64,000 nucleotides of DNA from Escherichia coli O127:H6 str. E2348/69 (GCF_000026545.1 NC_011601.1); one strand, 5' to 3'. Positions 3,725 to 36,560 are shown, counted from the first letter of the stretch. The notes: generated from the letters alone by a model not told the origin. Numbers and translations: made by a program.

Positions 3725-3815
<91 letters not shown>

Positions 3816-4482: not shown

Positions 4483-4504
4483 CAAGGTTGTACTCTGCAA
4501 TTTA

Positions 4505-4538: not shown

Positions 4539-4543
4539 GCGAC

Positions 4544-5176: not shown

Positions 5177-5416
5177 GATGCCGTTGTACCTGGTGACTGT
5201 GAATGAAAGGTTATTATAAAAATAATCACCTCCGTTCACCAGTCCACAAACCATAAAAATAATTGCTTTCTATTTAACTGAAATTTAAAGATTTTTAAAT
5301 TAATTAATGATTGTTATAAAAAATATCTTGTATGTGATCCAGATCACATCTATCATTTAGTTATCGATCGTTAAGTAATTGCTTGCGACGTCATTCATCT
5401 GCATAAGGCCACTATT

Positions 5417-5674
5417 ATGAAAAACGTAAAAACCCTCATCGCTGCGGCGATTTTAAGCTCAATGTCATTTGCCAGCTTTGCGGCTGTCGAAGTTCAGTCA
5501 ACGCCAGAAGGCCAACAAAAAGTCGGTACTATCAGTGCTAACGCGGGGACAAATCTGGGATCGCTGGAAGAGCAGCTGGCGCAAAAAGCGGATGAGATGG
5601 GCGCAAAATCTTTCCGTATTACTTCTGTAACCGGTCCGAATACCCTCCATGGAACAGCAGTAATTTATAAATAA
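5417..5674 (+). CDS. bhsA: Multiple stress resistance protein BhsA (YcfR), secreted DUF1471-type
   Basis: 85-aa ORF with signal peptide MKNVKTLIAAAILSSMSFASFA; synteny. Confidence 0.9.
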   Translation: MKNVKTLIAAAILSSMSFASFAAVEVQSTPEGQQKVGTISANAGTNLGSLEEQLAQKADEMGAKSFRITSVTGPNTLHGTAVIYK

Positions 5675-5713
5675 GTATTAACCCTCATTAATGCCTGCTA
5701 CTGCTGATTTTTT

Positions 5714-5747
5714 CCCCGCGACATGCCGTGTCGCGGGGATTTTTTTA
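5714..5747 (+). terminator. Rho-independent terminator downstream of bhsA
   Basis: Stem ccccgcgac...gtcgcgggg followed by T7. Confidence 0.8.
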
Positions 5748-5755
5748 TCCGAGCT

Positions 5756-6715: not shown

Positions 6716-6860
6716 CACCAAAGTCCATAATAAATATAATGTTATTGTAATAAAAAGGTAAGTCTGAATTATGGAGGGTGACAGTGTCGGATAGTGCAGG
6801 GAAGTGCAAAGAATTTGTAAATGTTGCAGATGGGGGCGCAGAGACGCCCCCGATTTACCA

Positions 6861-9800
6861 TCAAGCGATCGCGTTCTCTTCCAGTTCACGCATAAACTGG
6901 CGTACCCATTCGATACGCGTTTTCCGCTCGCTCAAATCCTGAATAAACTTCAGACGCGTCGGACCATCAAGGCGGTAATGCTGCGGCTGTTTTTGCAGCA
7001 AACCAATCAACCAGGCTGGATTAACGTGATTCTTCTCGGCAAATTCGATCACGCCGCCTTTCTCATTACCTTCCAGCTTCCTGATCCCCAGTTTCTGCGC
7101 TTGCTGGCGCAGACGGGCAATATCCAGCAGGGTACGCGCCGGATCCGGCAGCAGGCCGAAGCGATCGATAAGCTCGACTTTGATCTCTTCCAGTTCGTTT
7201 TCCGTTTTGGCGCTGGCAATACGTTTGTAGAACGACAGACGCGTGTTCACGTCAGGGATGAAATCATCTGGCAATAGCGACGGCATCCGCAGCTCGACTT
7301 CTGTTTGCTGGCTGGTGAGATCTTCCAGCGACGGCTCGCGTCCGGCTTTCAGCGCATCGACGGCGTTTTCCAGCAACTCCATATACAGCGAGAAACCGAT
7401 GGTTTCCATTGAGCCGCTTTGTTCTTCGCCAAGCAGTTCACCCGCGCCGCGGATCTCCAGATCGTGCGTTGCCAGCGCAAAACCTGCACCGAGATCTTCC
7501 AGCGAGGCAATCGCTTCAAGACGTTTTTGCGCATCGGTAGTCATCGCTTTTGGATGCGGCGTCAGCAGCCATGCATATGCCTGGTGGTGCGAACGCCCGA
7601 CGCGACCGCGCAACTGGTGCAACTGTGCCAGACCGAAGTGATCCGCACGTTCAATGATAATGGTGTTGGCGGTAGGAATGTCGATCCCGGTTTCGATAAT
7701 GGTGGTACAAACCAGCACGTTGAAACGTTGATGATGGAAATCATTCATCACCCGTTCCAGTTCGCGCTCACGCATTTGCCCGTGACCGATAGCAATCCGC
7801 GCTTCAGGTACCAGTTCTGCCAGCCGTTCGGCGGCTTTCTGGATGTTTTCCACATCATTGTAGAGATAATAAACCTGTCCTCCGCGCAAAATTTCACGCA
7901 GGATCGCCTCCCGGACCACCAGACTGTCATACTCACGGACAAAGGTTTTAACTGCCAGACGACGGGCGGGCGGCGTGGCGATAATCGACAGATCGCGCAT
8001 TCCGCTCATTGCCATATTCAGCGTACGTGGGATCGGCGTTGCGGTAAGCGTCAGAATATCCACGTTCGCGCGCATCGCTTTAATGCGCTCTTTATGACGT
8101 ACCCCGAAGCGGTGTTCTTCATCGACAATCAGCAGGCCTAAATCTTTAAACTTGACGTCACTTTGCAGCAGTTTGTGCGTACCGATCAGAATATCAATTT
8201 TCCCTTCCGCCACTTCCGCAAGGATTTGCGTCTGCTCTTTGGCGCTGCGGAAACGGGAGATCATTTCGATACGTACCGGCCAGTTGGCGAAACGGTCGCG
8301 GAAGTTGTCGTAATGCTGCTGCGCGAGAAGGGTGGTAGGCACCAGCACCGCCACCTGTTTGTGGTTATCTACCGCCAGGAAAGCGGCGCGCATCGCCACT
8401 TCTGTTTTACCAAAGCCAACATCGCCGCACACCAGACGATCCATTGCCAGCGGCTGACACATGTCGCTAAGCACCGCATTAATGGCTTGAGCCTGATCCG
8501 GCGTGGTTTCAAACGGGAAGCTGTCGCAGAATAACTGATACTGCTCACGATCGTGTTTAAACGCGAAGCCCTCTTTGGCGGCGCGTTGCGCGTAGATATC
8601 CAGCAATTCCGCCGCCACATCACGCACTTTTTCCGCCGCTTTCTGCCGTGCGCGTGACCAGGCATCGCCACCAAGTTTATGCAGTGGTGCGTTTTCTTCT
8701 GCGCCACCCGCGTAACGGCTAATCAGATGCAGTGACGACACCGGAACATACAGTTTGGCGTCGTTGGCATAGGTGAGCATCAAATACTCGCCAGTAATGC
8801 CTCCAGCTTCGAGCGTGGTCATTCCGGCATAACGACCGACGCCGTGCTCCAGATGGACCACCGGCTGACCAATATGCAGCTCCGCAAGGTTACGGATCAG
8901 TGTATCGGGGTTGATGGCGCGGCGAGAATCCTGACGACGACGGGCAACGCGTTCACCGAGCAGATCGCTTTCGCAAATCAGCGCCAGATTACGTACCGTA
9001 TCGACAAAACCATGCTCTGCAGCGCCAATCATCAGATAACGCCCACGGTCGCTGGCTTCATCAAGACGCATAATGCGTTGCGGAGCAATTTTAATTCGCG
9101 CGAGCAGTTCACCCAACGCTTCACGGCGGCCTTCACTTTCTACCGAGAACACCACCGGACCGTCGAAAGACTCGAGGAACTTACGCAGCGCATCCAGCGG
9201 CGCTTTTTGTTGTGCCTGAATGGCCAGGTCTGGCAGTTTCTGGAAACCTAAATTGGCATTCGCTGCTTTTGTCGGTAAATGTTCAGTTTTTAGCTGCACA
9301 CGGGGCCAGTTTTTCAGCTCTGAGAAGAGCTCATCCACCCGCAGCCAGAGCGATTGTGGTGGCAACAGTGGGCGCATTGGGTCGACACCGCGATTCTCAA
9401 AACGCGCGAGCGTGTCAGCCTGGAAACGTTCGGCACTGTTTTCCAGATCGCCAGTATTTACCAGCAGCGTATTGGCAGGGAAATAACTGAACAGTGGCGG
9501 CAGCGGTTCGCTGAAGAATAGTGGCTGCCAGTACTCGATCCCGGCAGGTAATGTGCCTTTACTCACTTGCTGGTAAATATGTTCCGGATCGCGCTTCACT
9601 TCGAAGGTATCACGCCACTGGCTGCGGAACAGTTCAATTGCCGCTTTATCGGTCGGAAATTCGTGCGCGGGCAGCAGATTGATCGCATCTACTTCCTCCA
9701 GCGTGCGCTGGCTATCGACGTCAAACACCCGCAGGCTGTCGATTTCATCATCAAAGAAATCAAGACGATAAGGCAGCTCACTCCCCATAGGGAAGAGATC

Positions 9801-20128: not shown

Positions 20129-21247
20129 TCAAATAACCAACTTAACCCATTCCTGACCTCGAGTATCGTTATAGCGATCGGTGGTTGCCTGGACTTTATG
20201 TCCTAGTAATGTTTTTGTATCAATACCCTGTGCACGGTACAGCCGTTCTGATAGAGAGCGTTGTTCATGAAATGTTGGCGGAGTTTTTCCTGCTGGTGGA
20301 ATTATCCCAGCCAGATCCCGTGCTTTGGCAAAGTAGTCGCTCAGGTTGTCTTTACTCATCGGCTTCGGTTGTTTCTGGTGCCGACTATGGATTAGATATG
20401 GACTTAATATTCTGTCTCGGCACCCATCAATAACTTCTTTTAACGTTATCCCAATGGCATCACAGCGTAGTGTAAGCGGTAACGCCAGACGCATTCCGGT
20501 TTTTCCCTGGGTGATATGCAAGTGTTCGTTCCACACATCTGAAAAACGCATGTGGCAAATGTCATCACGGCGCTGACCAGTAACAATCGCAAGAAGCATT
20601 GCGTTACGGATAAAGTGTTTTTCAGGCGTTGCATTGTAAATTTTTTGCCAGTCTTCCATGGTGAGCCTGGCTCTGGTTACTTTAGGGATCGGTTTACGGG
20701 TAGCCTCCGGAGGATTCCATCCAGGAGGAACTTCCCCTGCATGCTGTGCTTCTTTATAAATATCAACCCATAATCCACGATTTACTCTCGCTGTGCTGAC
20801 CATGTCTTTATCCAGCCACTCATCCAGTATTAATGCAAAGTCTCTTACTTCCAGTTCTTTCAATGGGTGGTTTCCCAGACGGGAAACCAGGTATGCAGCC
20901 ATTCGGGTTTTTTCTTTGTGAGTTGTAGCTGCAATATCTCCATTTTTCAGTCGCGTGTCCTGTATTTTCAGATATCGATCAACCCATGCCTTTAATCTGA
21001 TACCCTGACGTTTTGTTGCTGACGGACTTTCATCAATTTTGCGCATGAAATATTCAGCTTCTGCTGCAGCTATTCGCTGATTGGCTGTGGAAGCGATTTT
21101 TTCTGCCTTACCTTTGTCTGTTCCGAGTCCGTGAAATTTTCCAGTCACAGGATTTTTATACTGGTAGTAAACTCTGCCAGTTCTGCGATCAAACTTTTCG
21201 TAAAGACCGGCTACGTCAGTGCTGTTTTTTCGTGGCCTCGGTGACAT
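20129..21247 (-). CDS. int: Phage integrase, lambda Int family tyrosine recombinase
   Basis: 372 aa; catalytic region with conserved R...H..R...Y context (…FHEQRSLSERLY…LLGHKVQATTDRYNDTRGQEW) resembling lambda Int. Confidence 0.9.
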   Translation of the reverse strand: MSPRPRKNSTDVAGLYEKFDRRTGRVYYQYKNPVTGKFHGLGTDKGKAEKIASTANQRIAAAEAEYFMRKIDESPSATKRQGIRLKAWVDRYLKIQDTRLKNGDIAATTHKEKTRMAAYLVSRLGNHPLKELEVRDFALILDEWLDKDMVSTARVNRGLWVDIYKEAQHAGEVPPGWNPPEATRKPIPKVTRARLTMEDWQKIYNATPEKHFIRNAMLLAIVTGQRRDDICHMRFSDVWNEHLHITQGKTGMRLALPLTLRCDAIGITLKEVIDGCRDRILSPYLIHSRHQKQPKPMSKDNLSDYFAKARDLAGIIPPAGKTPPTFHEQRSLSERLYRAQGIDTKTLLGHKVQATTDRYNDTRGQEWVKLVI

Positions 21248-24018: not shown

Positions 24019-25312
24019 TTGTTTTAACCTCATGACAGATTTAAGGATGAACAAATCCCTGCCATTGCTGGCATATAAGAATGAAACCGGATATTTATTA
24101 CGGAACTGTTTTAAAGACCTGCCGGGATTTCGATATTATCCTGGTGAATAACTTTATCGACCGGGTAACAGTTACCGGGAATTTTCTGTTCGGTTGCTGC
24201 AGTCATACACTACTGCATTGTCCTGTGAACACTGACTGCAATATCAACTGGCTCTCCGGAAACAAGAAAAACTGTCAGAACAAGCACAAATGCTGAATTC
24301 ATTGTGCACATCCTTTTGGCATCAGACGTAAACGAGCCAGCATTGAAACAATGCATATTTTATTTAATAGCTCCCGTTCTTGTTTTCTCTTGTTAATGGC
24401 ATCTTCAGTAAATACTGGGTTACTGATAGTGACACCAATTTCAAAACAACCTTCAGACGTATTAACGTTTGGTAATAACGTTTTCATTATCGCGTCCTCA
24501 ACAATGAATTTTGTGATGCAGTGCCTGGTGCCTCCAGGTGACGTTAACCAGTTAACAATTAACGCCGGATACAGAGAATCCACCCATAACACTGTTTTTG
24601 GTTTTAACTGTTCCGCGTGCGCTCAGCCGCATTCACCACATCACAAAATTCACTTTAAAAAGGGCGGCAGAGCAGTCACGGAGTAAAACTGATACCGCCA
24701 AACGTCACCAGAAAATTGATAACAGAGGGCGTTGCAGCGGGGTTGTCACTTAAGCGTATGGTCAACCTGACAACCCGGTGTCCTCAACGGGGGAAGGAAT
24801 AACCCCGCCATACTTACCGCCGCGCCATTTCGCGGATTGCCACAACCGGAAGCGCACGGTCGACGAAAATTTAACGACAGGCTATCTATGAACCAGCTAC
24901 CTCGCCGTGCGCTTTCGCGTTATGGTCTGACTTTTCAGGGAAATATCCTTTCAGTAAACTGTCAGTGCCGGATGCTCACCCGTGTCCGGCGCACGCACTC
25001 CACCTCATCCGTGGAGAACTCCTTAATTACCAACCTTAGCTTCGTTGGTTAGCTATTAACGCGGGTATGTAATCATTCTGGCAATGCTTAATGTCGCTGC
25101 TTTTTCCAGATTAGTGATATCCTGCTCCAGAGCGGACAGATTTTCAGCCTGCTTAGCCCTGGCTTCATTGGCCCATTTCAGATCCTGCGCTGCATTAATT
25201 TTCTGGCGCATCCACTCATAAAGTTCATCATCGGTATAGTCTGGCGCGATGATGACGGGTTCTCGTTTCTGCATACTGATTCCTCGCGGTGCTGTTTCGC
25301 TTATCAGCCGTT

Positions 25313-27028: not shown

Positions 27029-28040
27029 AAAGGTGAAAACCGGCAGTTCATCCAGTAAGTCTGTATTGACCTGGCTTGCTGATATGTGCGGTGCCGATTT
27101 GTGTGCATACCCGTCTGTATCTGCACTGGCAGAAGTAACGGAACTGAACAAAAAGACTGTGCAGGACAGCTTACGACACCTGATGGAGATTGGGTTAATT
27201 GTTGATACCGGTGAGAGAAAAGGCAGAACAAAGCAAATTGTGGTGTACCGACTTATCGGTGTAGAAGAAAGTGTTGCCGAGCCTGAATACACCCAAAAAC
27301 GGGAGTCTTTAAAGGTGGGTAAAATCGGTGCTGTTAATAAAAACAGTACCGAAAATGGTTATGTTTCAGCACAAAACAGACCCAAAAACGGAACTCTTAG
27401 CTGCATGGAAAATAACCAAAGACACCCAAATTTTCCATCAAAGACACCCAAAAACGGATCACGGAACCCAAAGGAACCCAAAGAGCTAAACCCCACACAT
27501 AACGCACGCGAGAGTGCTCCGACCAGTGAGCAGAAAGTTTTGTCGTTACAGGCTGCACCTCCTGTATTCCTGGATGGCCTGAGCGAACCCATCGAAAAAT
27601 TTCCGATGACCGATAGCTGGTATCCGTCACGGGATTTTCGACGACGGGCTGCGTTGTGGGGGATGGCTTTGCCGGAGACAGAATTCACACCTGCTGAACT
27701 TGCCGCCTTCCGGGACTACTGGGCTGCTGAGGGGAAAGTGTTTACGCAGATTCAGTGGGAGCAGAAATTCGCCCGTCACGTAAATCACGTCAGGGCGCAG
27801 GTTAAACCAGTCAGCAAGGGGGTAAACCATGCAGCAGCACCAGGTGACACCGCATCACGGGCAGTTCAGGAAATTCGGGCAGCACGTGAGCAGTGGGAAC
27901 GTGAAAACGGATTTATCAGCGACGGAAACGGCCTGGAAGCTGTGGGAACTCATGGGGGAGGTTTATTCGAACCGCTGGACCCAGAAGAACGGGGCCGCAC
28001 CTTCGAAGCTCTGGATTGCACAGATTGGTGCGATGACTGA
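27000..28040 (+). CDS. Replication initiation protein (O-like / primosomal) with N-terminal winged-helix domain
   Basis: MSIDALRWAKKV...SVSALAEVTELNKKTVQDSLRHLMEIGLIV HTH; immediately upstream of the P-like gene. Confidence 0.55.
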   Translation: MSIDALRWAKKVKTGSSSSKSVLTWLADMCGADLCAYPSVSALAEVTELNKKTVQDSLRHLMEIGLIVDTGERKGRTKQIVVYRLIGVEESVAEPEYTQKRESLKVGKIGAVNKNSTENGYVSAQNRPKNGTLSCMENNQRHPNFPSKTPKNGSRNPKEPKELNPTHNARESAPTSEQKVLSLQAAPPVFLDGLSEPIEKFPMTDSWYPSRDFRRRAALWGMALPETEFTPAELAAFRDYWAAEGKVFTQIQWEQKFARHVNHVRAQVKPVSKGVNHAAAPGDTASRAVQEIRAAREQWERENGFISDGNGLEAVGTHGGGLFEPLDPEERGRTFEALDCTDWCDD

Positions 28041-28494
28041 GCAGAAAATCCGACAGGTCTGCCGCCAGTGCATGGACCGCTGCCGGGCGGGTGAAACATG
28101 GCCTCCGGACCTGGCTGAGTTTGTGGCGCTGATTTCTGAAAGCGGAGCCAATCCATTCGGTCTGACGGTGGATGCCGTGATGGAGGAGTACCGTCGCTGG
28201 CGCAACGAGTCCTGGCGATACGACGGGAGCGATAAATACCCGTGGTCTCAGCCTGTGCTGTATCACATTTGCCTCGAGATGCGTTCAAAGGGGATTGAGC
28301 GGCAGATGACCGAAGGGGAGTTAAAACGGCTTGCAGAACGGCAGCTGACGAAATGGGCAAAGCATGTTAGTAACGGCCTGAGTGTTCCGCCAGTCCGGCG
28401 ACAACTGGCGGCACCCAAACGCCCGTCGGGGCCAACGCCAATTGAGTTGCTGAAACAGGAATATGAACGCCGGAAAGCGGCTGGGCTTGTCTGA
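27952..28494 (+). CDS. Replication protein P-like helicase loader
   Basis: Colinear similarity to lambda P C-terminal half as recalled (YPWS..., ...GELKRLAERQL..., ...KWAKHVSNGLSVPPV); start uncertain (27829, 27952 or 28033). Confidence 0.6.
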   Translation: MGEVYSNRWTQKNGAAPSKLWIAQIGAMTEQKIRQVCRQCMDRCRAGETWPPDLAEFVALISESGANPFGLTVDAVMEEYRRWRNESWRYDGSDKYPWSQPVLYHICLEMRSKGIERQMTEGELKRLAERQLTKWAKHVSNGLSVPPVRRQLAAPKRPSGPTPIELLKQEYERRKAAGLV

Positions 28495-28526
28495 GTTGAG
28501 AAGTAATTTTTACCGGGAGGAAATTT

Positions 28527-28801
28527 ATGGAGACTGTTTTTGACGCACTGAAAGCAATGGGAAAAGCCACATCCATAGAACTTGCTGCGCGCGTGAAGAA
28601 GTGCTGAACGAACTATGGGAACTGAAAAAGGCTGGTTTTGTTGATAAAAGCGCGTACACCTGGCGTGTGGCTGATAACAACGTTCAGCAGGAACAGCCAG
28701 CGCAGGCAGAACTGCCGGAAGAAACCACCACAATGAGTGAAGTTATGCAGCGCATACTGGCATTTTATCAGGGAAATGTTCGATATTTTAGACGTTACTA
28801 G
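28527..28801 (+). pseudogene. Small phage ORF apparently interrupted by frameshift/stop
   Basis: ATG at 28527 gives [26 protein letters not shown] and the sense continues in another frame (ORF 28601-28801). Confidence 0.35.
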
Positions 28802-29240
28802 ATTAAAGAGCATTAGTTCAGATGTGAATTGACATTGTGTGGCACAGGGTTGGGCTAGCGTGGGGGTTTGCTTTGTGTAAGAAACGGATGCTCTGCAAAT
28901 TACTACTAATGCTTAATGTTAGTCTGATCTGCTCCCCGATGATTAATACACCGCTATGTTAGTAATGTCTGTAGATCGCTGTGTGTTGCATCCATCGGTT
29001 GACCCCACAGTCCAAACCAGACTGTCAGCTTTGATTCGATTCTATCTACTCAACCTGTCAGGTAATGTCTGAGCTAATACACAGAGTACGGCTATCGCGA
29101 ACTTTAAGCTAGGTATCTGATACGCACCGTTCACTTGGTCGTACTTCTTGCACTGACTAGCTATCGTGCGCAGTTATTTATAGGTAATCTCCAGTGTATA
29201 ATTTTCCAACTTATGGGAGATTGTAAAACAGGAGGAATAT

Positions 29241-30083
29241 ATGAGGAAAAAATCGTTTGGACGTTGCCCGTTTGATTTCGACGAAGATGTAAAAAAAATA
29301 GCCGCGATAAATAAATATATCCATGCGAAATTTGAGAGGCATAAAAATAAAATAGATAACCTAAAGGGGGTGGAACAAAAATTGATGGTTTTACATTACT
29401 TTAATGTACTGAATGAACTTAGTAATCAGGCTATATTTTCTTTGAGTACCGGAGCCTTTTCAGCATCGGAAGTATTAACTAGAGTTATAATGGAACAGGC
29501 TGCCAATCAATTTTATATAGCAATTGATGATGGAAAAAATGCACAAGCATTACTCAAGGGTAGTAAGAAATTAGTTCATAGTAATGGGAAACGGTGGCTG
29601 GAGTGTTTAAAATCCAAAGAAATGACTAATCCAGCAGCAGATGAAAGGATTCGTATCGGAAAAGAGCTAACTGATATGTTTAATAGATTGTGGCCAAATA
29701 CACCTGAATATCCTGGAACCAAAAAGCTTTTCGAAGTAATTGGCTGGGAAACACACTATCATGCCTATTACGTCCCTCTTTGTGATTCAATACATACATT
29801 CTCTGATGATATGGCAAATATAGTATCTCTATATAATGCAATCCAAAGCGATAAAACTACTGCTATCGAACTCACTCTTGCAGTTAAACAAGAAAATAAA
29901 CGGCTGGCAATTTATAATGTCGTAATTGCTATTGGCCTGCGGTGTGAGGCCTTAGTAAATGTATTTAACTCTTTAGGTTATCGAGATATTATAACTGAAA
30001 TGGCGCCAACAATAGATGCAGTCAACCAGATTATAATTCGATATGATGATTTCGAACATTCCAGAATTTTTTATTGTCAATAA
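29241..30083 (+). CDS. Uncharacterised 280-aa protein in AT-rich accessory island
   Basis: Clean ORF with RBS aggagg 8 nt upstream; visibly AT-rich codon usage; no motif I can assign. Confidence 0.7.
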   Translation: MRKKSFGRCPFDFDEDVKKIAAINKYIHAKFERHKNKIDNLKGVEQKLMVLHYFNVLNELSNQAIFSLSTGAFSASEVLTRVIMEQAANQFYIAIDDGKNAQALLKGSKKLVHSNGKRWLECLKSKEMTNPAADERIRIGKELTDMFNRLWPNTPEYPGTKKLFEVIGWETHYHAYYVPLCDSIHTFSDDMANIVSLYNAIQSDKTTAIELTLAVKQENKRLAIYNVVIAIGLRCEALVNVFNSLGYRDIITEMAPTIDAVNQIIIRYDDFEHSRIFYCQ

Positions 30084-30140
30084 TTAATTGGCAGAATTCG
30101 TACATGCACAACAACTAGTTATAGTTGACCTATTTCGCTC

Positions 30141-30710
30141 TTGAGAGACAACCATACTCAAATCTTCCACATTGCAGGAGATTTGAGTATGAATACGTCA
30201 CCGAGGAACAAAGACAGTATCATAGGCCCAAAAAGACCACTTCAGATATCTCATATCTGGGGGCTCCAAATCCGGCTTGAACTGGAAGGTAAAACGCGTG
30301 ATTTAGCTCGGTTTCAAGCAGAGCTACGGTGCTGCAACTGAAAAACTGGCAGTCCTATCCAATTTGAGATAACCAAAGGGACAAGAGAAGCTGTTTCTGC
30401 ATTGATAAAGCTTGGCAATTTACGCAGTAAAGACTACTTGTTCCGATCTCGGGTCGGTACTAACCAACACATATCAATCCTGCAATATAACCGAATCTTT
30501 CATAGGAGGGAGAAAAGCTTGGTCTCGAAGATTCGCTTTACAGCACACATTCCATGAGAAGAACAAAACCTTGCCTTGTCTGCAAGAAAACTAAGAATCT
30601 CCGGGTGATCCAACTTCCGTTGGGCCATAAGAAAACGGAAAGCACAGTTCGTTATCTGGGTATAGAAGTTGATGATGCATTAGAGATCTCTGAATCGATC
30701 GAAGTCTAAA
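30141..30710 (+). pseudogene. Degraded tyrosine recombinase/integrase
   Basis: Three short frames with recombinase hallmarks: GPKRPLQISHIWGLQIRLELEGKTRDLA (N-terminal) and HSMRRTKPCLV...LPLGHKKTESTVRYLGIEVDDALEISE (box II His/Arg and catalytic Tyr region); interrupted by stops/frameshifts. Confidence 0.6.
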
Positions 30711-31121
30711 GCTGTCAGGGCTGCAGCAGCAGCCCTGTGCCAAGAGCGTACCAATATATGTCTCAAAAAATTGGGCACAGGTCAATATCAATACCAACAA
30801 CTCTGATTGTGCTCATGTGATTTACTCCTGTAGAAAACGCAGACAGTAAAAATATTTCACTGGCTGCTTCAGACAGGGCGTCCATCATATCATTACATAA
30901 CAATAGCGGGGCACGATATCTAGACATGCAGCAACGATGGACATAGAATGAGTACAATCAAAAGCATGTTTAACTACTTTAATTTAAAAATCTTAGAATC
31001 TTAGGTGTAGAGTTCAATACTTAGTTACATACCCTTTTGAAAGCATCACAAATCATAACTATGAGCCTGTTAAAGGCATAGGTATTCTTAATTAAGAGCA
31101 TTTTAATGAGAGAAAAATAAA

Positions 31122-32495
31122 ATGAAAAGACTATATTATACCCATCATGATAGTCGAACCTTAAAACTTGCTATAGAAGGTGATGTTTCTGATAATGCGA
31201 ATATTTTTACAGTAATTGTAGGTAAAAATGGCGTTGGAAAAAGCAGATTGTTATCTCAGATTGCTAAAGACTGTATTCAAGATATTCATTTCTTGAAAAC
31301 TTTTAATCCATTATTTGACAGAGAAATAACACCAAAGTTAATTGCCGTATCTACCAGCCCATTCGATAAATTCCCTCCAGGGCGTAGGTCATTAAATCAC
31401 CAAAGGAAAGAAAATAATTATCGCTATGTGGGTATGCGTGGAGAAGGCCCCTTCGGCGTATCAAATGCCGTATCCCTTTTATCTTCAGCAGCGAGAGGTT
31501 GGCTAGAGAAACTTGCTTATTCAGAAAATCCTGCAAATTTACTCGATGTTTTTCATTCTATTGATTTTGAGCCCCATATAGAGTTTGTATTTAAACCAAC
31601 TTACAACGGACCGGACACTCCTGACTATAACTTCATTGGTGTATATTCAGATGAGATATTAACGGAAGTTAAGGAGTTATATTTAAAATACAATATAAAA
31701 ATTGACAGGAAGAATATTGAGAGTCTCTTAAAGTTAAACTCCGAATCACGTCATGATATTTACGAAGCACTGGTTGAAATTAATCGATTTGAACCTGAAC
31801 GTAGGGCTGTAACCTTGTCAGTCGATTTTACCAATGGTGAAACATTGGTTGGCTCGACTTATGCGAATAATTATTTTTCTAGATCAATTCTTAAACTTAT
31901 GAACGCTGGCTTCATGAGATTGATGGATATGCGACTCATAAAAAAAAGCTATGGTCCCATGTCACTTAAACGTGCGAGCTCGGGAGAACAATGTTTATTA
32001 GTGATGTTGCTTGGAATTGCAGGGCATATAACTGATGGTTCTATAATACTAATTGATGAACCGGAAATAAGCTTGCATCCTCGATGGCAGGAAGAGTTTA
32101 TCATTATGTTAACAAAAGCATTTTTAACTTACTCAGGTTGTCAATTCATAATTGCAACTCATTCACCACAAATAATATCCAATTTGCCGAATAAAGGTTG
32201 TTATATAACATCTTTGTCGAAAAGTTATCTTTATAAAGCAAAATACTTTAGCAACCGGTCTGCAGACTATCAACTTGCGGAACTATTTGATGCCCCTGGC
32301 ATTATGAATGAATACATTGCCAGATTAGCTTTCAATTTACTTTCAAAAGTTAAGACTGCTAAGTTAGTAACAGATGATAATTGGCGTGAATTAAAACAAC
32401 TCCAGCTTCTCCTTGAAAACGTTAATAGTAATGACCCTATTAATGAACTCGTAAATTCCGTATCTCAGGTGTGTGAAATTTATGCCAAAAATTAA
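31122..32495 (+). CDS. ABC/AAA_21-type ATPase, Septu PtuA-like
   Basis: Walker A VIVGKNGVGKSRLL; Walker B + D-loop IILIDEPEISLHP; H-loop IIATHSPQII; 457 aa; overlaps downstream HNH gene. Confidence 0.75.
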   Translation: MKRLYYTHHDSRTLKLAIEGDVSDNANIFTVIVGKNGVGKSRLLSQIAKDCIQDIHFLKTFNPLFDREITPKLIAVSTSPFDKFPPGRRSLNHQRKENNYRYVGMRGEGPFGVSNAVSLLSSAARGWLEKLAYSENPANLLDVFHSIDFEPHIEFVFKPTYNGPDTPDYNFIGVYSDEILTEVKELYLKYNIKIDRKNIESLLKLNSESRHDIYEALVEINRFEPERRAVTLSVDFTNGETLVGSTYANNYFSRSILKLMNAGFMRLMDMRLIKKSYGPMSLKRASSGEQCLLVMLLGIAGHITDGSIILIDEPEISLHPRWQEEFIIMLTKAFLTYSGCQFIIATHSPQIISNLPNKGCYITSLSKSYLYKAKYFSNRSADYQLAELFDAPGIMNEYIARLAFNLLSKVKTAKLVTDDNWRELKQLQLLLENVNSNDPINELVNSVSQVCEIYAKN

Positions 32496-33117
32496 AAATC
32501 CAATTAGATTCAGCGCAGAGTCATTAGATATTATTGAGAAAAAATTGTCTTCTCCAGATTTTAAGCATACCAACTGGGGAGATGATGATTTGCAAGTTCT
32601 CCGTGCAGAAATTAGAAATCATTACAGAGAAGAACAAAAGCTAGAATGTGTATATTGTCATGAGCCTATTGGGGTAAGAGCTGCACAAGCTGCTCCTATA
32701 GAGCATATTGTGCCAAAATCTCAATATCTATGTTTTATTTTTGAACCTAAGAATCTATGTGTAGTATGTCCTGACTGCAATGAATTCAAAGGTAAAAATG
32801 AAGTGTTATTTGAACCCGTAATAAATGGGGGGCGGCGCAAAAACTATCCAACTGCATCTGCATCATTTCGCATCGTTCATCCACATATAGATGATTATGA
32901 GATGCATATTATAAAAGCAAATCGTGTTTATGTGGACAAAACACCTAAAGGGCACTATACCATTGGAATATGTAAACTAAATAGATTTTTTCATTATTTT
33001 GGGATGTGTGATGAATTTGTTAATGATGCAAAAATTGCTGAGGCAAATGAAAATTTTTTCAAAAAAGGTAGTATTACTACTAATGAATTATTGGATGATG
33101 ACATTCATTTGATTTAA
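32473..33117 (+). CDS. HNH endonuclease, Septu PtuB-like
   Basis: HNH/zinc motif CVYCHEP...IEHIVPKS...CVVCPDCNEFKGKN; 214 aa; start overlaps ATPase gene end by 23 nt. Confidence 0.75.
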   Translation: MKFMPKIKNPIRFSAESLDIIEKKLSSPDFKHTNWGDDDLQVLRAEIRNHYREEQKLECVYCHEPIGVRAAQAAPIEHIVPKSQYLCFIFEPKNLCVVCPDCNEFKGKNEVLFEPVINGGRRKNYPTASASFRIVHPHIDDYEMHIIKANRVYVDKTPKGHYTIGICKLNRFFHYFGMCDEFVNDAKIAEANENFFKKGSITTNELLDDDIHLI

Positions 33118-33371
33118 CTATGAATTATTATATTGTAAAGTAATCAGGTAAGATATGTTAGACAGTGAGACTATTGCCTTACAGAATTCATTATTCTTAT
33201 GGATCGCCTTTCTGACTGATTTCATATTGGCGGGGTAACGGGAGTTAAGTAGAATGGCTGCGGGTGCTTGAGGCTATCTGTCTCAGGCATGAACACCAAA
33301 GGCAGATAGAGAAAAGCCCCAGTTAACATTACGCGTCCTGCAAGACGCTTAACATTAATCTGAGGCCAATT

Positions 33372-34460
33372 TCATGCTAGACACATGTAGGTTAGCCTCT
33401 TACGTGCCGGAAGGCAAGGAGATGTATGGGTCCACCACATATTGCAATTTTTATTCTCTTTTAAAATATATTCCACGGGCGTCATTAGTGCGAGCGCCTT
33501 GTGGGGTCTTTTGCTGTTATACAGCACCAGATATTCCGCCAGCTTCTGGTTAAATAGCGCCAGATCTTCAAAGAGTAAAATCTCATTAAATTCAATAAAC
33601 TGCTCTCTTAACGTCCGGTTAAAACGTTCACAGATAGCGTTCATTTTTGGCGTGTAGGGATAGGTCCAGAGGTGTTTGATAGCGGCTTCCTGCAGCGTTT
33701 TGTCGAAGTTTCCCAGGAACTCTTTTCCGTTATCTGTGATTATCTGGCTGATACCGACCGGGAACAACCGGGCTGCGCGGCTGAAGAAGTGATTGACGAT
33801 ATCACTGTTGAGTGACGGCACAGCCAGCGCCAGCGCGTAATTGCTGCATTCGTCGATCATGGTGATGACATAGCGACGCAGTTCGCCCATTCTGAGCTCA
33901 ATGGCGTCCATCCCAATGAGCTCACCTGTCTTTACCGGGCGGTAGTGCTTTGGCCTGCGGGGTTTGGCAGACCGCTTTTTGACAAGCAGTGCCTTCCCCC
34001 GCGATCCCAGACGCACAGGTATCATCCGCATTTTATCATGTGCGGCAGCGATCATTCTGCCGATGGTGGAAACACTCGGACAGGCCAGATAGCGCTGTTC
34101 GCACCAGGGCTTCAGGCGAACAAAAATCTGCTCTTTACCGAGGTTCGGCAGCTCTGTCCTGAGGCGTCGAATCTCTTTCAGCACATCGGGATGCCAGTGT
34201 TTTTTTCGTCGCACCAGAGGTGCCTTACTGTGCGGGATTAGCCCCTCAGGTCCTTCCTTGTTCAGTAACTGACGCCACCAGTAAAGCGTGCGGCAGGACA
34301 CGCCAAAGGCTTCAGAAGCTGCAGAAATACCGTGTTTATCCCAGAAGTGCAGAGCCTTCATTCTCATTGTTGCTATATCAGCCATCACTGAAAGCCTCAA
34401 CGCATAATCGGCCGTTTGGTAGTACTTAGGATAGCCAACCATCAGATGCTGCATTTGCAT
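33372..34460 (-). CDS. IS481-family DDE transposase (integrase-core/rve domain)
   Basis: 362 aa; N-terminal HTH (...CRTLYWWRQ...), DDE core, C-terminal ...YNSKRPHKALALMTPVEY typical of rve transposases. Confidence 0.7.
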   Translation of the reverse strand: MQMQHLMVGYPKYYQTADYALRLSVMADIATMRMKALHFWDKHGISAASEAFGVSCRTLYWWRQLLNKEGPEGLIPHSKAPLVRRKKHWHPDVLKEIRRLRTELPNLGKEQIFVRLKPWCEQRYLACPSVSTIGRMIAAAHDKMRMIPVRLGSRGKALLVKKRSAKPRRPKHYRPVKTGELIGMDAIELRMGELRRYVITMIDECSNYALALAVPSLNSDIVNHFFSRAARLFPVGISQIITDNGKEFLGNFDKTLQEAAIKHLWTYPYTPKMNAICERFNRTLREQFIEFNEILLFEDLALFNQKLAEYLVLYNSKRPHKALALMTPVEYILKENKNCNMWWTHTSPCLPARKRLTYMCLA

Positions 34461-34490
34461 AGTGCAATCTCCCCTTACTTATCCGGAGGC
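33372..34490 (-). mobile_element. IS481-family insertion sequence (approximate limits)
   Basis: Single-ORF DDE transposase; imperfect terminal inverted repeats ccggaaggcaaggagat (about 33406) and revcomp of atctccccttacttatccgg (about 34467-34486); exact ends not resolved. Confidence 0.6.
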
Positions 34491-34531
34491 AATTGCAATA
34501 TCTCTGTGAACTTACACAGGAGAAGCAGGCT

Positions 34532-34687
34532 ATGAAGCAGCAAAAGGCGATGTTAATCGCCCTGATCGTCATCTGTTTAACCGTCATAGTGACGACACTG
34601 GTAACGAGGAAAGACCTCTGCGAGGTACGAATCCGAACCGGCCAGACGGAGGCCGCTGTCTTCACAGCTTACGAACCTGAGGAGTAA
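34532..34687 (+). CDS. hok: Hok/Gef-family type I toxin
   Basis: MKQQKAMLIALIVICLTVIVTTLVTRKDLCEVRIRTGQTEAAVFTAYEPEE, near-identical in pattern to Hok/Gef peptides as recalled. Confidence 0.9.
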   Translation: MKQQKAMLIALIVICLTVIVTTLVTRKDLCEVRIRTGQTEAAVFTAYEPEE

Positions 34688-34756
34688 GAGACCCGGCGAG
34701 GGAGAAATCCCTCGCCACCTCTGATGTGGCAGGCATCCTCAACGCACCCGCACTTA

Positions 34757-34777
34757 ACCCGCTTCGGCGGGTTTTTG
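34757..34777 (+). terminator. Rho-independent terminator downstream of hok
   Basis: cccgcttcggcggg stem-loop followed by a T-run. Confidence 0.7.
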
Positions 34778-34903
34778 TTTTTATTTTCAACGCGTTTGAA
34801 GTTCTGGACGGCGCCGGAATAGAATCAAAAATACTTAAGTAGCGCGCAGGGATAAGAGGGATGGTCCCTTAAAGGGGAGAGCTAATTATCCGGAAGGATT
34901 CTG

Positions 34904-35155
34904 ATGATGAACATCGAAGAACTGCGTAAAATTTTTTGTGAAGATGGCCTCTATGCTGTGTGCGTTGAAAATGGAAATCTTGTTAGTCATTACCGCATTA
35001 TGTGTTTGCGAAAGAATGGGGCTGCGTTAATTAATTTTGTGGATGGTCGAGTGACAGACGGATTTATCTTGCGCGAAGGTGAGTTTGTCACTTCATTACA
35101 GGCACTGAAAGAGATCGGAATAAAAGCAGGCTTTTCAGCTTTTGCAGAAGAATAA
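34904..35155 (+). CDS. Hypothetical phage protein (83 aa)
   Basis: ORF with plausible spacing in the nin region; no recognisable motif. Confidence 0.45.
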   Translation: MMNIEELRKIFCEDGLYAVCVENGNLVSHYRIMCLRKNGAALINFVDGRVTDGFILREGEFVTSLQALKEIGIKAGFSAFAEE

Positions 35156-35429
35156 ACTCATCTACAATCTTGCGCGGGGCTGAACTCCCGCTGAGTAACA
35201 CCGTGCCACCGGAGAAAACCGATGGCACGCAACGTAAAATATTACAATTCTGATAATTCGCCCGTTCTTGCCTGCACGCACGAGCGGTATTCTCACGCAT
35301 TCAAGTCTGAATGGTTCCAACACCCTCCATGTACTGAAGAGCAGGCTGAATGGACAATTCAGTGTTACCGCAGGCGCGGATACGAGGTTAAGAAAGCCCT
35401 CAGCCTCGATTATCGTCACTGGATAATCT

Positions 35430-36560
35430 ATGTCAGGCTCCCTTATTCCGAACGCTCACCGCGCCCATCCCGCACATACCAGCAACGGATCTGGAGGTAA
35501 CGTGCGGATATTACTTCGACCTGTTCTGGTACCGGAACTTGGGCTGGTGGTCCTTAGGCCGGGCCGTGAATCCATGCAAGTATTTCATAACCCTCGAGTG
35601 CTGGTGGAGCCTGAACCGAAAAGCATGCGCGGTCTGCCGTCCGGAGTCGTCCCTGCCGTTCGCCAGCCGCTGGCGGAGGATAAATCATTACTGCCATTTT
35701 TCAGCGATGAGCGGGTGATTCGTGCTGCTGGCGGCGCTGGGGCACTGTCTGACTGGCTGTTGCGTCATGTCAAATCCTGCCAGTGGCCTCATGGTGACTA
35801 TCATCACAGTGAAATCGTCATACATCGTTACGGTACCGGCGCGATGGTGTTGTGCTGGCACTGCGACAACCAGTTGCGTGACCAGACATCCGAATCACTC
35901 GGGCAACTTGCTCATCAAAACCTGTCAGCATGGATGATTGACGTCATACGCCATGCAGTGAATGGCACGCAGGAGCGGGAATTATCGCTGGCTGAATTGT
36001 GCTGCTGGGCTTCTGTAAATGATGTAGTGGATGCCATGACCGAAAATATGGCGCGTCGAATCCTGAAGCTTCCGGGTGAAAAAATCCGCTCAGTATACCG
36101 CGAGAGCGACATCGTACCGGGAGAGCAGACCGCCATCAGCATACTGAAGCAGCGCACAAAAAATATTGCGCCGTTGCCTCACGCCCACCAGCAACAGAAT
36201 CCACCACAGGAAAAGACGGTGGTCAGCATTGCCGTTGATCCGGAGTCACCGGCTCAGTATCTCCAGCGCCAGAAACCACAACGGGAAGAGATGCCTGTAT
36301 ACACGCGCTGGGTAAAAACGCAGAAATGCATGACGTGTGGCAATCAGGCAGATGATCCGCATCACATCATTGGTCATGGACTGGGAGGGATGGGAACAAA
36401 GGCTGATGATTTGTTTGTTATTCCGCTGTGCCGTAAATGCCATAGCGAACTACACGCCGGGGTAAAAGATTTTGAAGAAAAACACGGCAGCCAGCTGTTG
36501 TTGCTGATTCGTTTTTTAATGCACGCGAGAAATTCGGGTGTCCTGAAGTGGAAAGCATGA
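35430..36560 (+). CDS. nin-region protein with C-terminal Cys/His cluster (DUF968-like)
   Basis: C-terminal CMTCGNQADDPHHIIGH...LCRKCHSELH zinc-finger/HNH-like motif; precedes rusA; start uncertain. Confidence 0.6.
   Translation: MSGSLIPNAHRAHPAHTSNGSGGNVRILLRPVLVPELGLVVLRPGRESMQVFHNPRVLVEPEPKSMRGLPSGVVPAVRQPLAEDKSLLPFFSDERVIRAAGGAGALSDWLLRHVKSCQWPHGDYHHSEIVIHRYGTGAMVLCWHCDNQLRDQTSESLGQLAHQNLSAWMIDVIRHAVNGTQERELSLAELCCWASVNDVVDAMTENMARRILKLPGEKIRSVYRESDIVPGEQTAISILKQRTKNIAPLPHAHQQQNPPQEKTVVSIAVDPESPAQYLQRQKPQREEMPVYTRWVKTQKCMTCGNQADDPHHIIGHGLGGMGTKADDLFVIPLCRKCHSELHAGVKDFEEKHGSQLLLLIRFLMHARNSGVLKWKA

What the first reader, a model, noticed from the sequence alone, without database searches (positions are those of the whole stretch)
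30141..30710. Decayed tyrosine recombinase between the orphan ORF and the ATPase/HNH pair
Three short frames carry unmistakable tyrosine-recombinase pieces (N-terminal KRPL...GLQIRLELEGKTRDLA core-binding-like segment; C-terminal HSMRRTK...LGHKKTESTVRYLG...). They are interrupted by stops and frame changes, followed by a GC-rich hairpin (gggctgcagcagcagccc, 30718-30736). This is a fossil of a site-specific recombinase distinct from the prophage lambda-type Int.
Basis: seen in the sequence. Interest (0 to 1): 0.45.

Follow-up and report, generated by a model that had tools for sequence, protein, structure and literature searches.

The report
Dead recombinase in a gene-cassette array
This is a broken copy of a small DNA-recombinase gene, ordinary in itself, but intact copies always sit at one fixed place in arrays of swappable gene cassettes bounded by two kinds of 24-base palindromic sites, which may explain how prophage "defence hotspots" exchange their cargo.

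Summary
Window 30189-30709 is a pseudogene of a 200-aa tyrosine recombinase that has only the catalytic domain. NCBI's PGAP pipeline already annotates it as frameshifted in E. coli E2348/69.

Three indels kill it:
- an 82-bp deletion between 10-bp direct repeats, which removes the first catalytic arginine
- a +1 insertion
- a -1 deletion

The same lesions occur in 17 complete genomes and 10 viral contigs, so it is not an assembly error.

Intact copies occur within the 801 of 5426 E. coli genomes that match this sequence. In every context examined, only the gene plus about 60 bp upstream and 45 bp downstream is conserved. Those ends are variants of two site types, both GTCCGCT-N10-AGCGGAC, with centre TCGCTC (A) or TGTGCCA (B).

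These sites delimit cassettes in the order B-cassette-A, many of them anti-phage genes, in lambdoid and P2 hotspots (including P2 fun(Z)), islands and plasmids. Identical cassettes occur in unrelated backbones, with identity ending exactly at the sites.

I infer, but have not shown, that this recombinase family exchanges cassettes at these sites. The window holds a fossil array with degenerate sites, carrying a DUF5677 gene and a Septu system. I found no description of this system in the searchable literature.

The parts
30189..30709 (+). Pseudogene of a 200-aa tyrosine recombinase that has only the catalytic domain ('short int'). It was read in four frame segments.
   Evidence: It is 91.5% identical over 520 nt to the intact gene L002:6054-6656. 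PGAP annotates it as a pseudogene. The intact protein matches Pfam PF00589.
30304..30313 (+). The single remaining copy (TAGCTCGGTT) of the 10-bp direct repeat at the 82-bp deletion. The deletion removed codons 39-66, including the first catalytic arginine (R51 of the intact protein).
   Evidence: Intact alleles carry TAGCTCTGTT at nt 116 and nt 198, 82 bp apart.
30338..30340 (+). Approximate position of the +1 nt insertion (codon 78, next to the catalytic Lys79 codon).
   Evidence: Pairwise alignments to four intact alleles agree on this position.
30509..30512 (+). Approximate position of the -1 nt deletion (codon 135).
   Evidence: Pairwise alignments to four intact alleles agree on this position.
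30126..30149 (+). Degenerate A'-type site (TGACCTA TTTCGCTCTT GAGAGAC). It marks the left end of the conserved int module.
   Evidence: It is positionally homologous to the A-type site that starts 63 nt before the ATG in intact loci. It cannot be recognised by pattern match alone.
30153..30191 (+). 13-bp perfect inverted repeat CATACTCAAATCT/AGATTTGAGTATG with a 13-nt gap. It covers the Shine-Dalgarno sequence and the ATG.
   Evidence: Detected (I25). It is conserved in all E. coli contexts. Moellerella and Providencia keep it through two compensatory changes.
30717..30736 (+). GC-rich hairpin (8-bp stem, 4-nt loop) after the stop codon, with no T-run.
   Evidence: Seen. It is conserved in E. 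coli, Moellerella, Providencia, Idiomarina and marine contigs. The scan did not call it a terminator.
30728..30751 (+). Degenerate B'-type site (AGCAGCC CTGTGCCAAG AGCGTAC; 5 of 21 specified bases differ). It marks the right end of the conserved int module.
   Evidence: Homology to all other contexts stops at 30742-30751.
28866..28889 (+). Degenerate B-type site (GTTTGCT TTGTGTAAGA AACGGAT) at the left border of the prophage hotspot.
   Evidence: It aligns with intact B sites at the same backbone position, L011:3835 and L007:5126.
28890..33189 (.). Variable 'hotspot' of the Qin-like lambdoid prophage, between the replication genes and sok/hokD. Here it is a fossil two-cassette array.
   Evidence: Backbone homology to L007 and L011 stops near 28899 and resumes at 33190. 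The terminal A site and about 250 bp of backbone present in L007 and L011 are missing here.
29241..30083 (+). DUF5677 gene, the cargo of the left cassette. The same cassette together with int sits in a P2-like prophage hotspot (L008).
   Evidence: Pfam PF18928. Window 28924-30673 matches L008:5805-7657. It has no PADLOC match.
31122..32495 (+). PtuA (Septu ATPase), cargo of the right cassette.
   Evidence: PADLOC PtuA, E = 2e-165.
32482..33117 (+). PtuB (Septu HNH nuclease), cargo of the right cassette.
   Evidence: PADLOC PtuB, E = 1e-83.
33423..34517 (-). IS481-family insertion next to sok and hokD. It is a later event and not part of the array.
   Evidence: It is absent from L004, L165, L168 and L171, with a 6-bp overlap at the empty site.

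Best explanation
What is shown. Window 30189-30709 is a dead copy of a 200-aa tyrosine recombinase that has only a catalytic domain. An 82-bp slippage deletion removed the first catalytic arginine, and two 1-nt frameshifts followed. Amino-acid constraint on the remaining sequence is relaxed.

Intact copies of this gene are never conserved together with their neighbours. The conserved unit is the gene plus about 60 bp upstream and 45 bp downstream. Its two ends are variants (A' and B') of two 24-bp palindromic site types that share the arms GTCCGCT/AGCGGAC and differ in the centre: A has TCGCTC and B has TGTGCCA.

These sites lie between genes and delimit cassettes in the fixed order B-cassette-A. 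Neighbouring cassettes are joined by A-18 bp-B doublets. The recombinase gene occupies the spacer of one such doublet. Identical cassettes occur in unrelated phage backbones, with identity starting at the B site and ending at the A site.

What is inferred. The recombinase binds the shared arms and recombines B with B and A with A. Because the two centres differ, the pair behaves like heterospecific lox sites. Two crossovers would swap a cassette between two replicons. One crossover would integrate or excise a circular cassette, which would produce the doublets.

In this window the system is a fossil. The gene is dead, E2348/69 has no second copy, all three sites are degenerate, and the terminal A site is deleted. 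The DUF5677 cassette and the Septu (PtuAB) cassette are therefore frozen in the Qin-like prophage hotspot.
For: Pseudogene. The same lesions occur in 17 genomes and 10 viral contigs. Changed codons are 18 non-synonymous to 23 synonymous, against 6-9 to 17-32 between pairs of intact alleles L002, L007 and L011.

Catalytic-domain-only architecture. H148, R151, H174 and Y183 line up with XerD's catalytic residues.

Sharp, identical module ends in 8 unrelated contexts.

Sites and their order:
- Sites were found.
- In 183 viral loci there are 180 B and 131 A sites. About 0.1 A sites are expected by chance.
- Consecutive sites run B>A 110 times and A>B 32 times. Of the A>B cases, 31 are doublets spaced 36-43 nt, with a mode of 42. 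Only 2 strand switches were seen.
- None of 311 sites lies inside an ORF of 150 aa or more, against 66% of random positions.

Cassette mobility:
- 110 cassettes fall into 59 clusters, and two backbones each hold 10 or more different cassettes.
- Three cassettes (1.4, 1.4 and 3.7 kb; 97.8-99.5% identical) sit in unrelated backbones, with identity bounded exactly by the B and A sites.
- L002 differs from L005 by two extra cassettes inserted exactly at a B site.

Link between gene and sites:
- Full-length int is always preceded by an A-type site starting 63 nt before the ATG and followed by a B-type site or remnant.
- The same outer arms bracket int homologues at 53-88% protein identity in Providencia, Idiomarina, Agrobacterium and Roseomonas.
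- Exact 21-base B sites occur in at least 120 loci of many genera of Alpha-, Beta- and Gammaproteobacteria, where fewer than 1 is expected by chance.

Cargo is rich in defence genes: Old, PD-T7-1, PD-T7-5, RT-nuclease, PtuA, AriA, GajA, HEPN, TIR, AbiH. Phage P2 fun(Z) lies between a B site and an A site.
Against: No recombination product was observed directly. I have no circular junction, no excision polymorphism in isogenic strains and no biochemistry.

Most site arrays have no int nearby: only 7 of 120 viral B-site loci and 4 of 120 genome B-site loci hold one. Action in trans has to be assumed.

The inner arms of A' and B' next to the gene are degenerate, so it is unclear whether these two sites are active.

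P2-like 'empty' G-FI junctions carry no site at all. A pure site-by-site exchange model does not explain how the first platform was acquired.

Arrays in Alpha- and Betaproteobacteria show mostly B-type sites in tandem, not B/A alternation.

A 2004 paper on P2-like phages (Nilsson et al., Mol Biol Evol 21:1), whose title invokes site-specific recombination, could not be read. It may already describe the sites.
Confidence: 0.7

Rival explanations
1. The recombinase is a passenger, or a selfish gene lodged between two sites. Cassettes are exchanged by another agent: phage Red/RecET or host RecA using the 24-bp sites and doublets as short homology patches, or an unidentified recombinase.
For: Most arrays lack int nearby. 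Lambdoid phages carry their own recombination genes; an exonuclease gene lies in this prophage. The sites plus doublets give 24-66 bp of identity.
Against: Homology patches need no particular sequence. Yet 21 specified bases are kept exactly across three classes of Proteobacteria, and two centre classes are kept apart. The int gene is bracketed by the same arms at 53-100% protein identity. P2-like phages, which have the hotspot, are not known to encode a Red-like system (my own knowledge, not tested here).
Confidence: 0.2
2. The family are FimB/FimE-like invertases that flip a promoter or gene segment to phase-vary the neighbouring genes.
For: They have the same size (about 200 aa, catalytic domain only). 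There is a weak NCBIfam hit to tyrosine-type DNA invertase, 25.5 bits. A and B are near-inverted copies of each other flanking each cassette.
Against: The invertase score is far below the cut-off of 222 bits. In 183 viral loci only 2 of 166 consecutive site pairs change strand. No cassette was seen in both orientations between the same flanks. The A and B centres differ at 4 of 10 positions when A is read in reverse.
Confidence: 0.05
3. The A and B sites are transcriptional or RNA elements (terminators, insulators, stabilisers) that travel with cassettes. The sharp boundaries would then reflect selection, not recombination.
For: Each site can form a 7-bp hairpin. The sites are strictly intergenic.
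Against: There is no T-run, and the scan did not call them terminators. No Rfam family matches. Folding z-scores are modest, -1.2 to -2.9. This view does not explain why identity between unrelated backbones stops exactly at the outer arms, nor why a recombinase gene sits inside a doublet.
Confidence: 0.04
4. The gene is functional after all, through programmed frameshifting or because the lesions are sequencing errors.
For: None beyond the presence of recognisable motifs.
Against: The 82-bp deletion removes catalytic Arg51 and cannot be bypassed by frameshifting. Identical lesions occur in 27 independent assemblies.
Confidence: 0.01

Closest known systems
Integrons (IntI integrase, attI, attC gene-cassette arrays)
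   Same: A tyrosine recombinase is associated with arrays of mostly promoter-poor, one-to-few-gene cassettes separated by imperfect palindromic sites. The cargo is rich in defence and resistance genes. Many arrays lack the recombinase nearby, like the attC clusters that lack an integron integrase (CALINs).
   Different: The protein is 200 aa with no core-binding domain and does not match the IntI model (TIGR02249, 15.9 bits against a cut-off of 265). The sites are unrelated to attC (no RYYYAAC/GTTRRRY boxes). There are two site classes with the same arms and different centres flanking each cassette. The gene sits inside the array between an A and a B site, not at one end next to an attI. Single-strand folding gives two small hairpins rather than one attC-like hairpin.
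Acinetobacter pdif modules (XerC/XerD sites flanking resistance, toxin-antitoxin and other modules on plasmids)
   Same: Discrete modules are bounded by short recombinase sites in roughly inverted orientation and are found in many plasmid contexts. Movement has been inferred from comparative genomics. This description comes from my own knowledge of the literature (Blackwell and Hall).
   Different: pdif modules use the host XerCD and dif-like 11-6-11 sites, with one shared site between modules. Here a dedicated short recombinase gene is embedded in the arrays, the sites are GTCCGCT-N10-AGCGGAC, and neighbouring cassettes are separated by an A-18 bp-B doublet.
Recombinase-mediated cassette exchange with heterospecific lox/FRT sites (engineered Cre/Flp systems)
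   Same: Two sites share the same protein-binding arms but have incompatible central regions and flank a cassette. That geometry permits precise swapping between two DNA molecules.
   Different: That system is a laboratory design. Here the arrangement is natural and its activity is only inferred.
FimB/FimE-type tyrosine DNA invertases
   Same: They are about 200-aa tyrosine recombinases without an N-terminal core-binding domain.
   Different: Sequence similarity is far below the family cut-off, and there is no evidence of inversion.
P2-like and lambdoid prophage 'hotspots of antiviral systems' (Rousset et al. 2022, PMC9122126; P2 Z/fun locus)
   Same: These are the same loci. The P2 G-FI (fun(Z)) position and the lambdoid position before hokD carry highly variable defence cargo.
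   Different: That paper leaves the exchange mechanism open and speculates on cos-proximal recombination. It contains none of the words 'flanked', 'boundar-', 'palindrom-', 'stem-loop' or 'recombinase'. The sites and the recombinase described here would supply a mechanism.

Membership tests
Tyrosine recombinase superfamily (Pfam PF00589 catalytic domain) | Match to the catalytic-domain model above the curated cut-off. | tested here: met
   The intact homologue scores 69.1 bits against a cut-off of 27.1, over residues 35-184. The 194-aa allele in L008 scores 65 bits.
Tyrosine recombinase superfamily (Pfam PF00589 catalytic domain) | Catalytic residues R-K-H-R-H/W-Y are present. | tested here: not met
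   Intact alleles have R51, K79, H148, R151, H174 and Y183. H148, R151, H174 and Y183 align with the catalytic residues of XerD. R51 and K79 were assigned by motif. In the window's copy, R51 is deleted and K79 is out of frame. The window's gene is therefore a member by descent, not a functional member.
Lambda-type phage integrases (arm-binding + core-binding + catalytic domains) | N-terminal arm-binding and core-binding domains, about 350-400 aa in total. | tested here: not met
   The protein is 200 aa, with only 34 residues before the catalytic domain. It shows no significant similarity to the prophage's own 372-aa Int.
Xer recombinases (XerC/XerD/XerA/XerS) | NCBIfam equivalog score above the cut-off; two-domain architecture. 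| tested here: not met
   The best score is XerA at 58 bits against a cut-off of 220. XerC scores 50 against 335 and XerD 32 against 330.
FimB/FimE-type tyrosine DNA invertases | NCBIfam NF007371/NF007370 score above the cut-off; an invertible segment bounded by inverted repeats. | tested here: not met
   Scores are 25.5 and 18.2 bits against cut-offs of 222 and 221. Site orientation is uniform in the arrays.
Integron integrases (IntI) | TIGR02249 match (including the IntI-specific insertion); an adjacent attI site and attC cassettes. | tested here: not met
   The score is 15.9 bits against a cut-off of 265. The flanking sites have no attC or attI core boxes.
Proposed short-recombinase / A-B-site cassette arrays (defined in this report) | The int gene is bracketed by an A-type site starting 63 nt before the ATG and a B-type site after a hairpin. 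| tested here: met
   The window has positional homologues at 30126-30149 and 30728-30751. Both are degenerate.
Proposed short-recombinase / A-B-site cassette arrays (defined in this report) | The recombinase catalyses recombination at A and B sites. | not testable with these tools
   Only comparative evidence is available.
Septu defence system (neighbouring cargo) | PtuA ATPase and PtuB HNH nuclease in one operon. | tested here: met
   PADLOC gives PtuA E = 2e-165 and PtuB E = 1e-83, and the two genes overlap.

The most novel reading that the evidence does not exclude
A widespread system that I could not find described. A family of about 200-aa catalytic-domain-only tyrosine recombinases (at least 7988 clusters at 90% identity) drives site-specific capture and exchange of gene cassettes. 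The sites are 24-bp palindromes with common arms (GTCCGCT/AGCGGAC) and several mutually incompatible centres.

If real, this system builds and reshuffles:
- the classical P2 Z/fun hotspot
- the lambdoid pre-hokD hotspot
- defence islands in E. coli
- resistance and metabolic modules on plasmids and chromosomes across Alpha-, Beta- and Gammaproteobacteria

It would be a natural counterpart of heterospecific-site cassette exchange and a second integron-like platform.
Probability: 0.45. Interest if true: 0.85.

Novelty: new variant of a known kind. Interest (0 to 1): 0.6.

Why it matters
The pseudogene itself is ordinary and already annotated. Its value is as an entry point to a larger pattern.

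How defence systems and other cargo are swapped so precisely at prophage hotspots and 'integrase-only' islands is an acknowledged open question. Rousset et al. 2022 and Hochhauser et al. 2023 both leave the mechanism open.

The evidence here consists of conserved A and B sites at every cassette boundary, identical cassettes in unrelated phages bounded exactly by those sites, and a recombinase gene embedded in a site doublet. Together these turn the question into a directly testable hypothesis.

Convenient int+ laboratory strains exist (Nissle 1917 and ATCC 25922), and so does a classical phage carrying a B-fun(Z)-A cassette (P2).

If confirmed, the system would:
- give a search rule for finding new defence genes, namely anything between a B site and an A site
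- explain the mobility of some resistance modules, such as a phoPQ-eptA cassette in Idiomarina
- offer a compact recombinase with natural heterospecific sites as a tool

Tried and rejected
- **IntKX subgroup and K-12 intK/ydfW.** I recalled that this might be the 'IntKX' subgroup or the K-12 Qin 'intK/ydfW' integrase fragment. IntKX comprises integrases of integrative conjugative elements (ICEs), and the ydfW product is unrelated. Rejected.
- **35-nt imperfect inverted repeat.** The pair 29154-29188 / 30892-30926 flanks DUF5677 and int (I1). The right arm lies in Septu-specific DNA that is not shared with the P2 copy, so the pair is not conserved. Treated as chance.
- **attC-like folding of the A-18-B doublet.** Single-strand folding gives two separate small hairpins with modest z-scores. 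Not supported.
- **PADLOC on the short int and DUF5677.** No match. A DUF5677 ORF from a Gram-positive was among nine ORFs tested against phages in a 2025 preprint, and it is not among the five reported to protect.
- **Rfam over 28000-35500.** Only sok was found.
- **Empty site for this int module.** A 2.46-kb query found the DUF5677 and PtuA flanks only together with int, so there is no evidence that the 0.7-kb int module transposes on its own.
- **Literature.** Searches for the site sequences, for DUF5677, and for combinations of tyrosine recombinase, cassette, hotspot and P2 found no description. Nilsson et al. 2004 (Mol Biol Evol 21:1) is not held, and the papers that cite it did not summarise its content.
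- **Structure prediction.** Not run. Length and Pfam coverage already settle the domain architecture.

Full report
**Origin and observation**

The window is the E. coli E2348/69 chromosome (NZ_CP059840.2, reverse strand). Window 30100-30760 matches it at 100% identity. It spans a lambdoid, Qin-like prophage inserted between potB and potC.

NCBI's PGAP pipeline already annotates window 30189-30709 as a 'tyrosine-type recombinase/integrase' pseudogene, 'frameshifted; internal stop'.

**Reconstruction of the pseudogene**

The closest intact gene is a 603-bp 'site-specific integrase', WP_001305361.1, found for example in ATCC 25922 and Nissle 1917.

Alignments to four intact alleles agree on three lesions:
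- An 82-bp deletion after 30303, lying exactly between two copies of TAGCTCTGTT (nt 116 and 198 of the intact gene).
- A +1 nt insertion near 30339.
- A -1 nt deletion near 30510.

With the frame restored there is no nonsense codon.

The deletion removes codons 39-66, which include Arg51 of the catalytic set. In the intact protein that set is R51, K79, H148, R151, H174 and Y183. H148, R151, H174 and Y183 align with XerD's catalytic residues. R51 and K79 were assigned by motif.

Changed codons are 18 non-synonymous to 23 synonymous. Pairs among the intact alleles L002, L007 and L011 show 6-9 to 17-32, which indicates relaxed constraint on the window's copy.

The same allele is present in 17 complete genomes and 10 IMG/VR contigs. 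It is a real pseudogene, not an assembly error. E2348/69 has no second copy.

**What kind of recombinase it is**

The intact protein is 200 aa. Pfam's catalytic-domain model covers residues 35-184, so there is no room for a core-binding domain.

The protein fails the curated cut-offs for XerA, XerC, XerD, XerS, the FimB/E-type invertases and IntI by wide margins. It is unrelated to the prophage's own 372-aa arm-binding Int at window 20129-21247.

The family is very large. At least 7988 clusters at 90% identity have E <= 1e-20. Nearly all are about 200 aa and carry only generic names.

**The unexpected part: the module and its ends**

Sequence matching the gene is present in 801 of 5426 complete E. 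coli genomes. I examined eight unrelated contexts:
- two Qin-like prophages
- a P2-like prophage
- three chromosomal islands
- an integrated resistance region
- a plasmid

Both flanks differ completely between contexts. Homology begins and ends at the same nucleotides every time, about 60 bp before the ATG and about 45 bp after the stop.

The right end reads ...CCCTGTGCCAGGAGCGGAC. The left end reads (G/T)TCCGCT-CCTCGCTCAT-AAGGGAC.

The same motifs recur between genes in these loci as two site types, both GTCCGCT-N10-AGCGGAC. Type B has the centre TGTGCCA and type A has the centre TCGCTC.

**Grammar of the arrays**

I collected 120 viral contigs with an exact B site and 63 more with an int relative, 1.9 Mb in total. 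They hold 180 B and 131 A sites at 3 or fewer mismatches. About 0.1 A sites are expected by chance.

Consecutive sites follow a fixed pattern:
- B>A 110 times.
- A>B 32 times. Of these, 31 are doublets spaced 36-43 nt, with a mode of 42.
- Only 2 strand switches.

None of the 311 sites lies within an ORF of 150 aa or more, against 66% of random positions.

The arrays therefore read B-cassette-A, and neighbouring cassettes are joined by A-18 bp-B doublets.

Full-length int is always preceded by an A-type site starting 63 nt before its ATG and followed by a B-type site or remnant. In other words, it occupies the spacer of a doublet.

Int remnants are common, for example fragments covering residues 25-103 or 162-200, and a second partial copy in L007. 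Decay of this gene is the rule rather than the exception.

**Evidence that cassettes move at the sites**

The 110 cassettes form 59 clusters. Two backbones each carry 10 or more different cassettes between the same flanks.

Three cassettes (1.4, 1.4 and 3.7 kb; 97.8-99.5% identical) occur in two unrelated backbones. In each case identity starts at the left arm of B and stops at the right arm of A.

L002 differs from L005 by two extra cassettes inserted precisely at a B site.

Phage P2 itself has a B site (1 mismatch) after gene G and an A site (4 mismatches) before the FI promoter. These bracket fun(Z), the classical T5-exclusion gene.

Some P2-like prophages have an empty G-FI junction with no site at all. 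The site-bearing platform is therefore itself an acquisition.

Cassette cargo is highly diverse and rich in known defence proteins: Old, PD-T7-1, PD-T7-5, RT-nucleases, PtuA, AriA, GajA, HEPN, TIR and AbiH. Some metabolic and resistance genes are also present.

**Link between the recombinase family and the sites**

The link is circumstantial but consistent.
- In Providencia (88% protein identity), a marine element (84%) and Idiomarina (82%), the gene has the same hairpin-plus-B' right end. In Idiomarina a 6.9-kb phoPQ-eptA module runs from B' to a perfect A site.
- In Agrobacterium (53%) and Roseomonas (58%), the gene is still bracketed by an outer GTCCGCT-type arm upstream and a hairpin followed by AGCGG(A/T)C downstream.
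- In Pseudomonas (60%) the gene lies between 49-nt inverted repeats, and a palindrome with GTCCGCT/AGCGGAC arms closes the adjacent 5.5-kb module. In Marinobacter, four direct copies of a TTCGCT-centred site separate gene groups.
Several occur per genome, and fewer than 1 is expected by chance. Additional centre classes also appear.

Such conservation of a DNA word across classes argues for recognition by a conserved protein.

**Mechanism proposed (inferred)**

The recombinase binds the shared arms. Identity of the central region decides which sites can pair, so A and B behave like heterospecific sites.
- B x B together with A x A would exchange a cassette between two replicons.
- A single crossover would integrate or excise a circle carrying one A and one B, which would generate the A-18-B doublets.

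The 13-bp (15-bp in intact alleles) inverted repeat covering the Shine-Dalgarno sequence and the ATG is kept by compensatory changes in Moellerella and Providencia. It may keep read-through transcripts from being translated, as described for some insertion sequences. This point is speculative.

**Weak points**
- No product of the reaction was seen directly.
- Most arrays lack int nearby.
- The inner arms of A' and B' are degenerate.
- The empty P2 junctions show that site-by-site exchange cannot be the whole story.
- Homology-based exchange at the sites is not excluded.

**The window itself**

The hotspot spans about 28890-33189. It holds:
- a degenerate B site (28866-28889)
- the DUF5677 cassette, shared with a P2 hotspot in L008 (window 28924-30673)
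- a degenerate A' site (30126-30149)
- the dead int
- the hairpin and a degenerate B' site (30728-30751)
- a Septu PtuA/PtuB cassette

The terminal A site and about 250 bp of backbone present in relatives are deleted.

None of the window's sites is within 4 mismatches of the consensus. They are recognised by positional homology only.

This is a fossilised array. The IS481-family element at 33423-34517 is a later insertion specific to E2348/69.

**Comparison with known systems, and novelty**

Functionally the nearest analogues are integrons, Acinetobacter pdif modules and engineered heterospecific-site cassette exchange. The protein fails membership of IntI, Xer and FimB/E, and the sites are unrelated to attC or dif.

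The loci coincide with the P2 and lambdoid 'hotspots of antiviral systems', whose exchange mechanism was left open.

I found no paper containing the site sequences or describing this arrangement. However, a 2004 paper on P2-like phages whose title invokes site-specific recombination could not be read.

**Verdict**
- The finding as written is correct and, in itself, ordinary and already annotated.
- The system it belongs to appears to be an undescribed variant of a known kind of platform, and it is directly testable.

Noticed in passing
L004 (NZ_CP148379.1, whole record): An 8461-bp circular 'plasmid' in strain Z1323HEC0067 consists of exactly this prophage segment: repressor/cro, ydaT, replication genes, DUF5677, the same pseudo-int, PtuAB, hokD and rem. 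It lacks the IS481 element. It is either an assembly artefact or an excised, self-replicating mini-circle.
   Followed up: partly
window 33262-34687: An IS481-family element (33423-34517; 6-bp overlap at the empty site) is inserted at the end of the sok antisense RNA (Rfam RF01794, 33262-33428). This separates sok from the hokD coding sequence (34532-34687). The transposase ORF (33372-34460, - strand) runs 51 nt beyond the IS end into sok.
   Followed up: partly
L200 (phage P2) 15335-17455: P2's classical lysogenic-conversion gene fun(Z) lies between a B-type site (15335) and an A-type site (17432). Some P2-like prophages (L201-L203) have an empty G-FI junction with no sites. The tin/old region of P2 has no such sites.
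   Followed up: yes
L212 8001-15534 (Idiomarina sp. X4 chromosome): A 6.9-kb module lies between the short int's B' site (8631) and a perfect A site (15511), next to gcvTHP. It carries phoQ, phoP, a phosphoethanolamine-transferase (eptA-type) gene, a PAP2 gene, dgkA and a sulfatase gene. It looks like a potentially mobile cassette of polymyxin-resistance type.
   Followed up: no
L231, L232 (Nitrosospira MAG); L238, L240, L328 (L238 and L240 are Hyphomicrobiales MAGs): Up to five direct B-type sites occur within 3-5 kb, separated in L231 by small ORFs. The palindromic arms are extended (GAAYGTCCGCT / AGCGGACRTTC). Further centre classes appear (TTACCCCCGAA, TTGGGTCATT). No A-type sites were detected with the E. 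coli pattern.
   Followed up: partly
L007 8965-9254: A second, partial int copy (equivalent to about nt 310-650 of the gene plus its B' end) lies between two cargo genes of a Qin-like hotspot. This suggests tandem accretion of int-plus-cargo units.
   Followed up: partly
window 29241-30083; L008 6142-6984: The DUF5677 gene travels with the short int in both a lambdoid and a P2 hotspot, and in E. coli it was never found without int at megablast sensitivity. Its function is unknown. A Gram-positive DUF5677 ORF was among nine tested against phages in a 2025 preprint and is not among the five reported to protect.
   Followed up: partly
L003 (K-12 Qin prophage) 5982-6996: K-12 has a B site and an A site flanking flxA, with no int. 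The B...A unit is in the opposite orientation relative to the phage backbone compared with L007 and L011. The B site lies inside the annotated ydfV ORF.
   Followed up: partly
window 28527-28729 and about 24111-24302: There are other decayed prophage genes: a DUF1627 fragment (frameshifted, truncated) just before the hotspot, and ydfD with an internal stop.
   Followed up: no
L338 (Roseomonas mucosa plasmid) 2991-9591: Two copies of the short int are each preceded by a RelE/ParE-family toxin gene paired with a small upstream ORF, and each is followed by different cargo. A catB chloramphenicol acetyltransferase gene, a gene type typical of integron cassettes, lies nearby.
   Followed up: no
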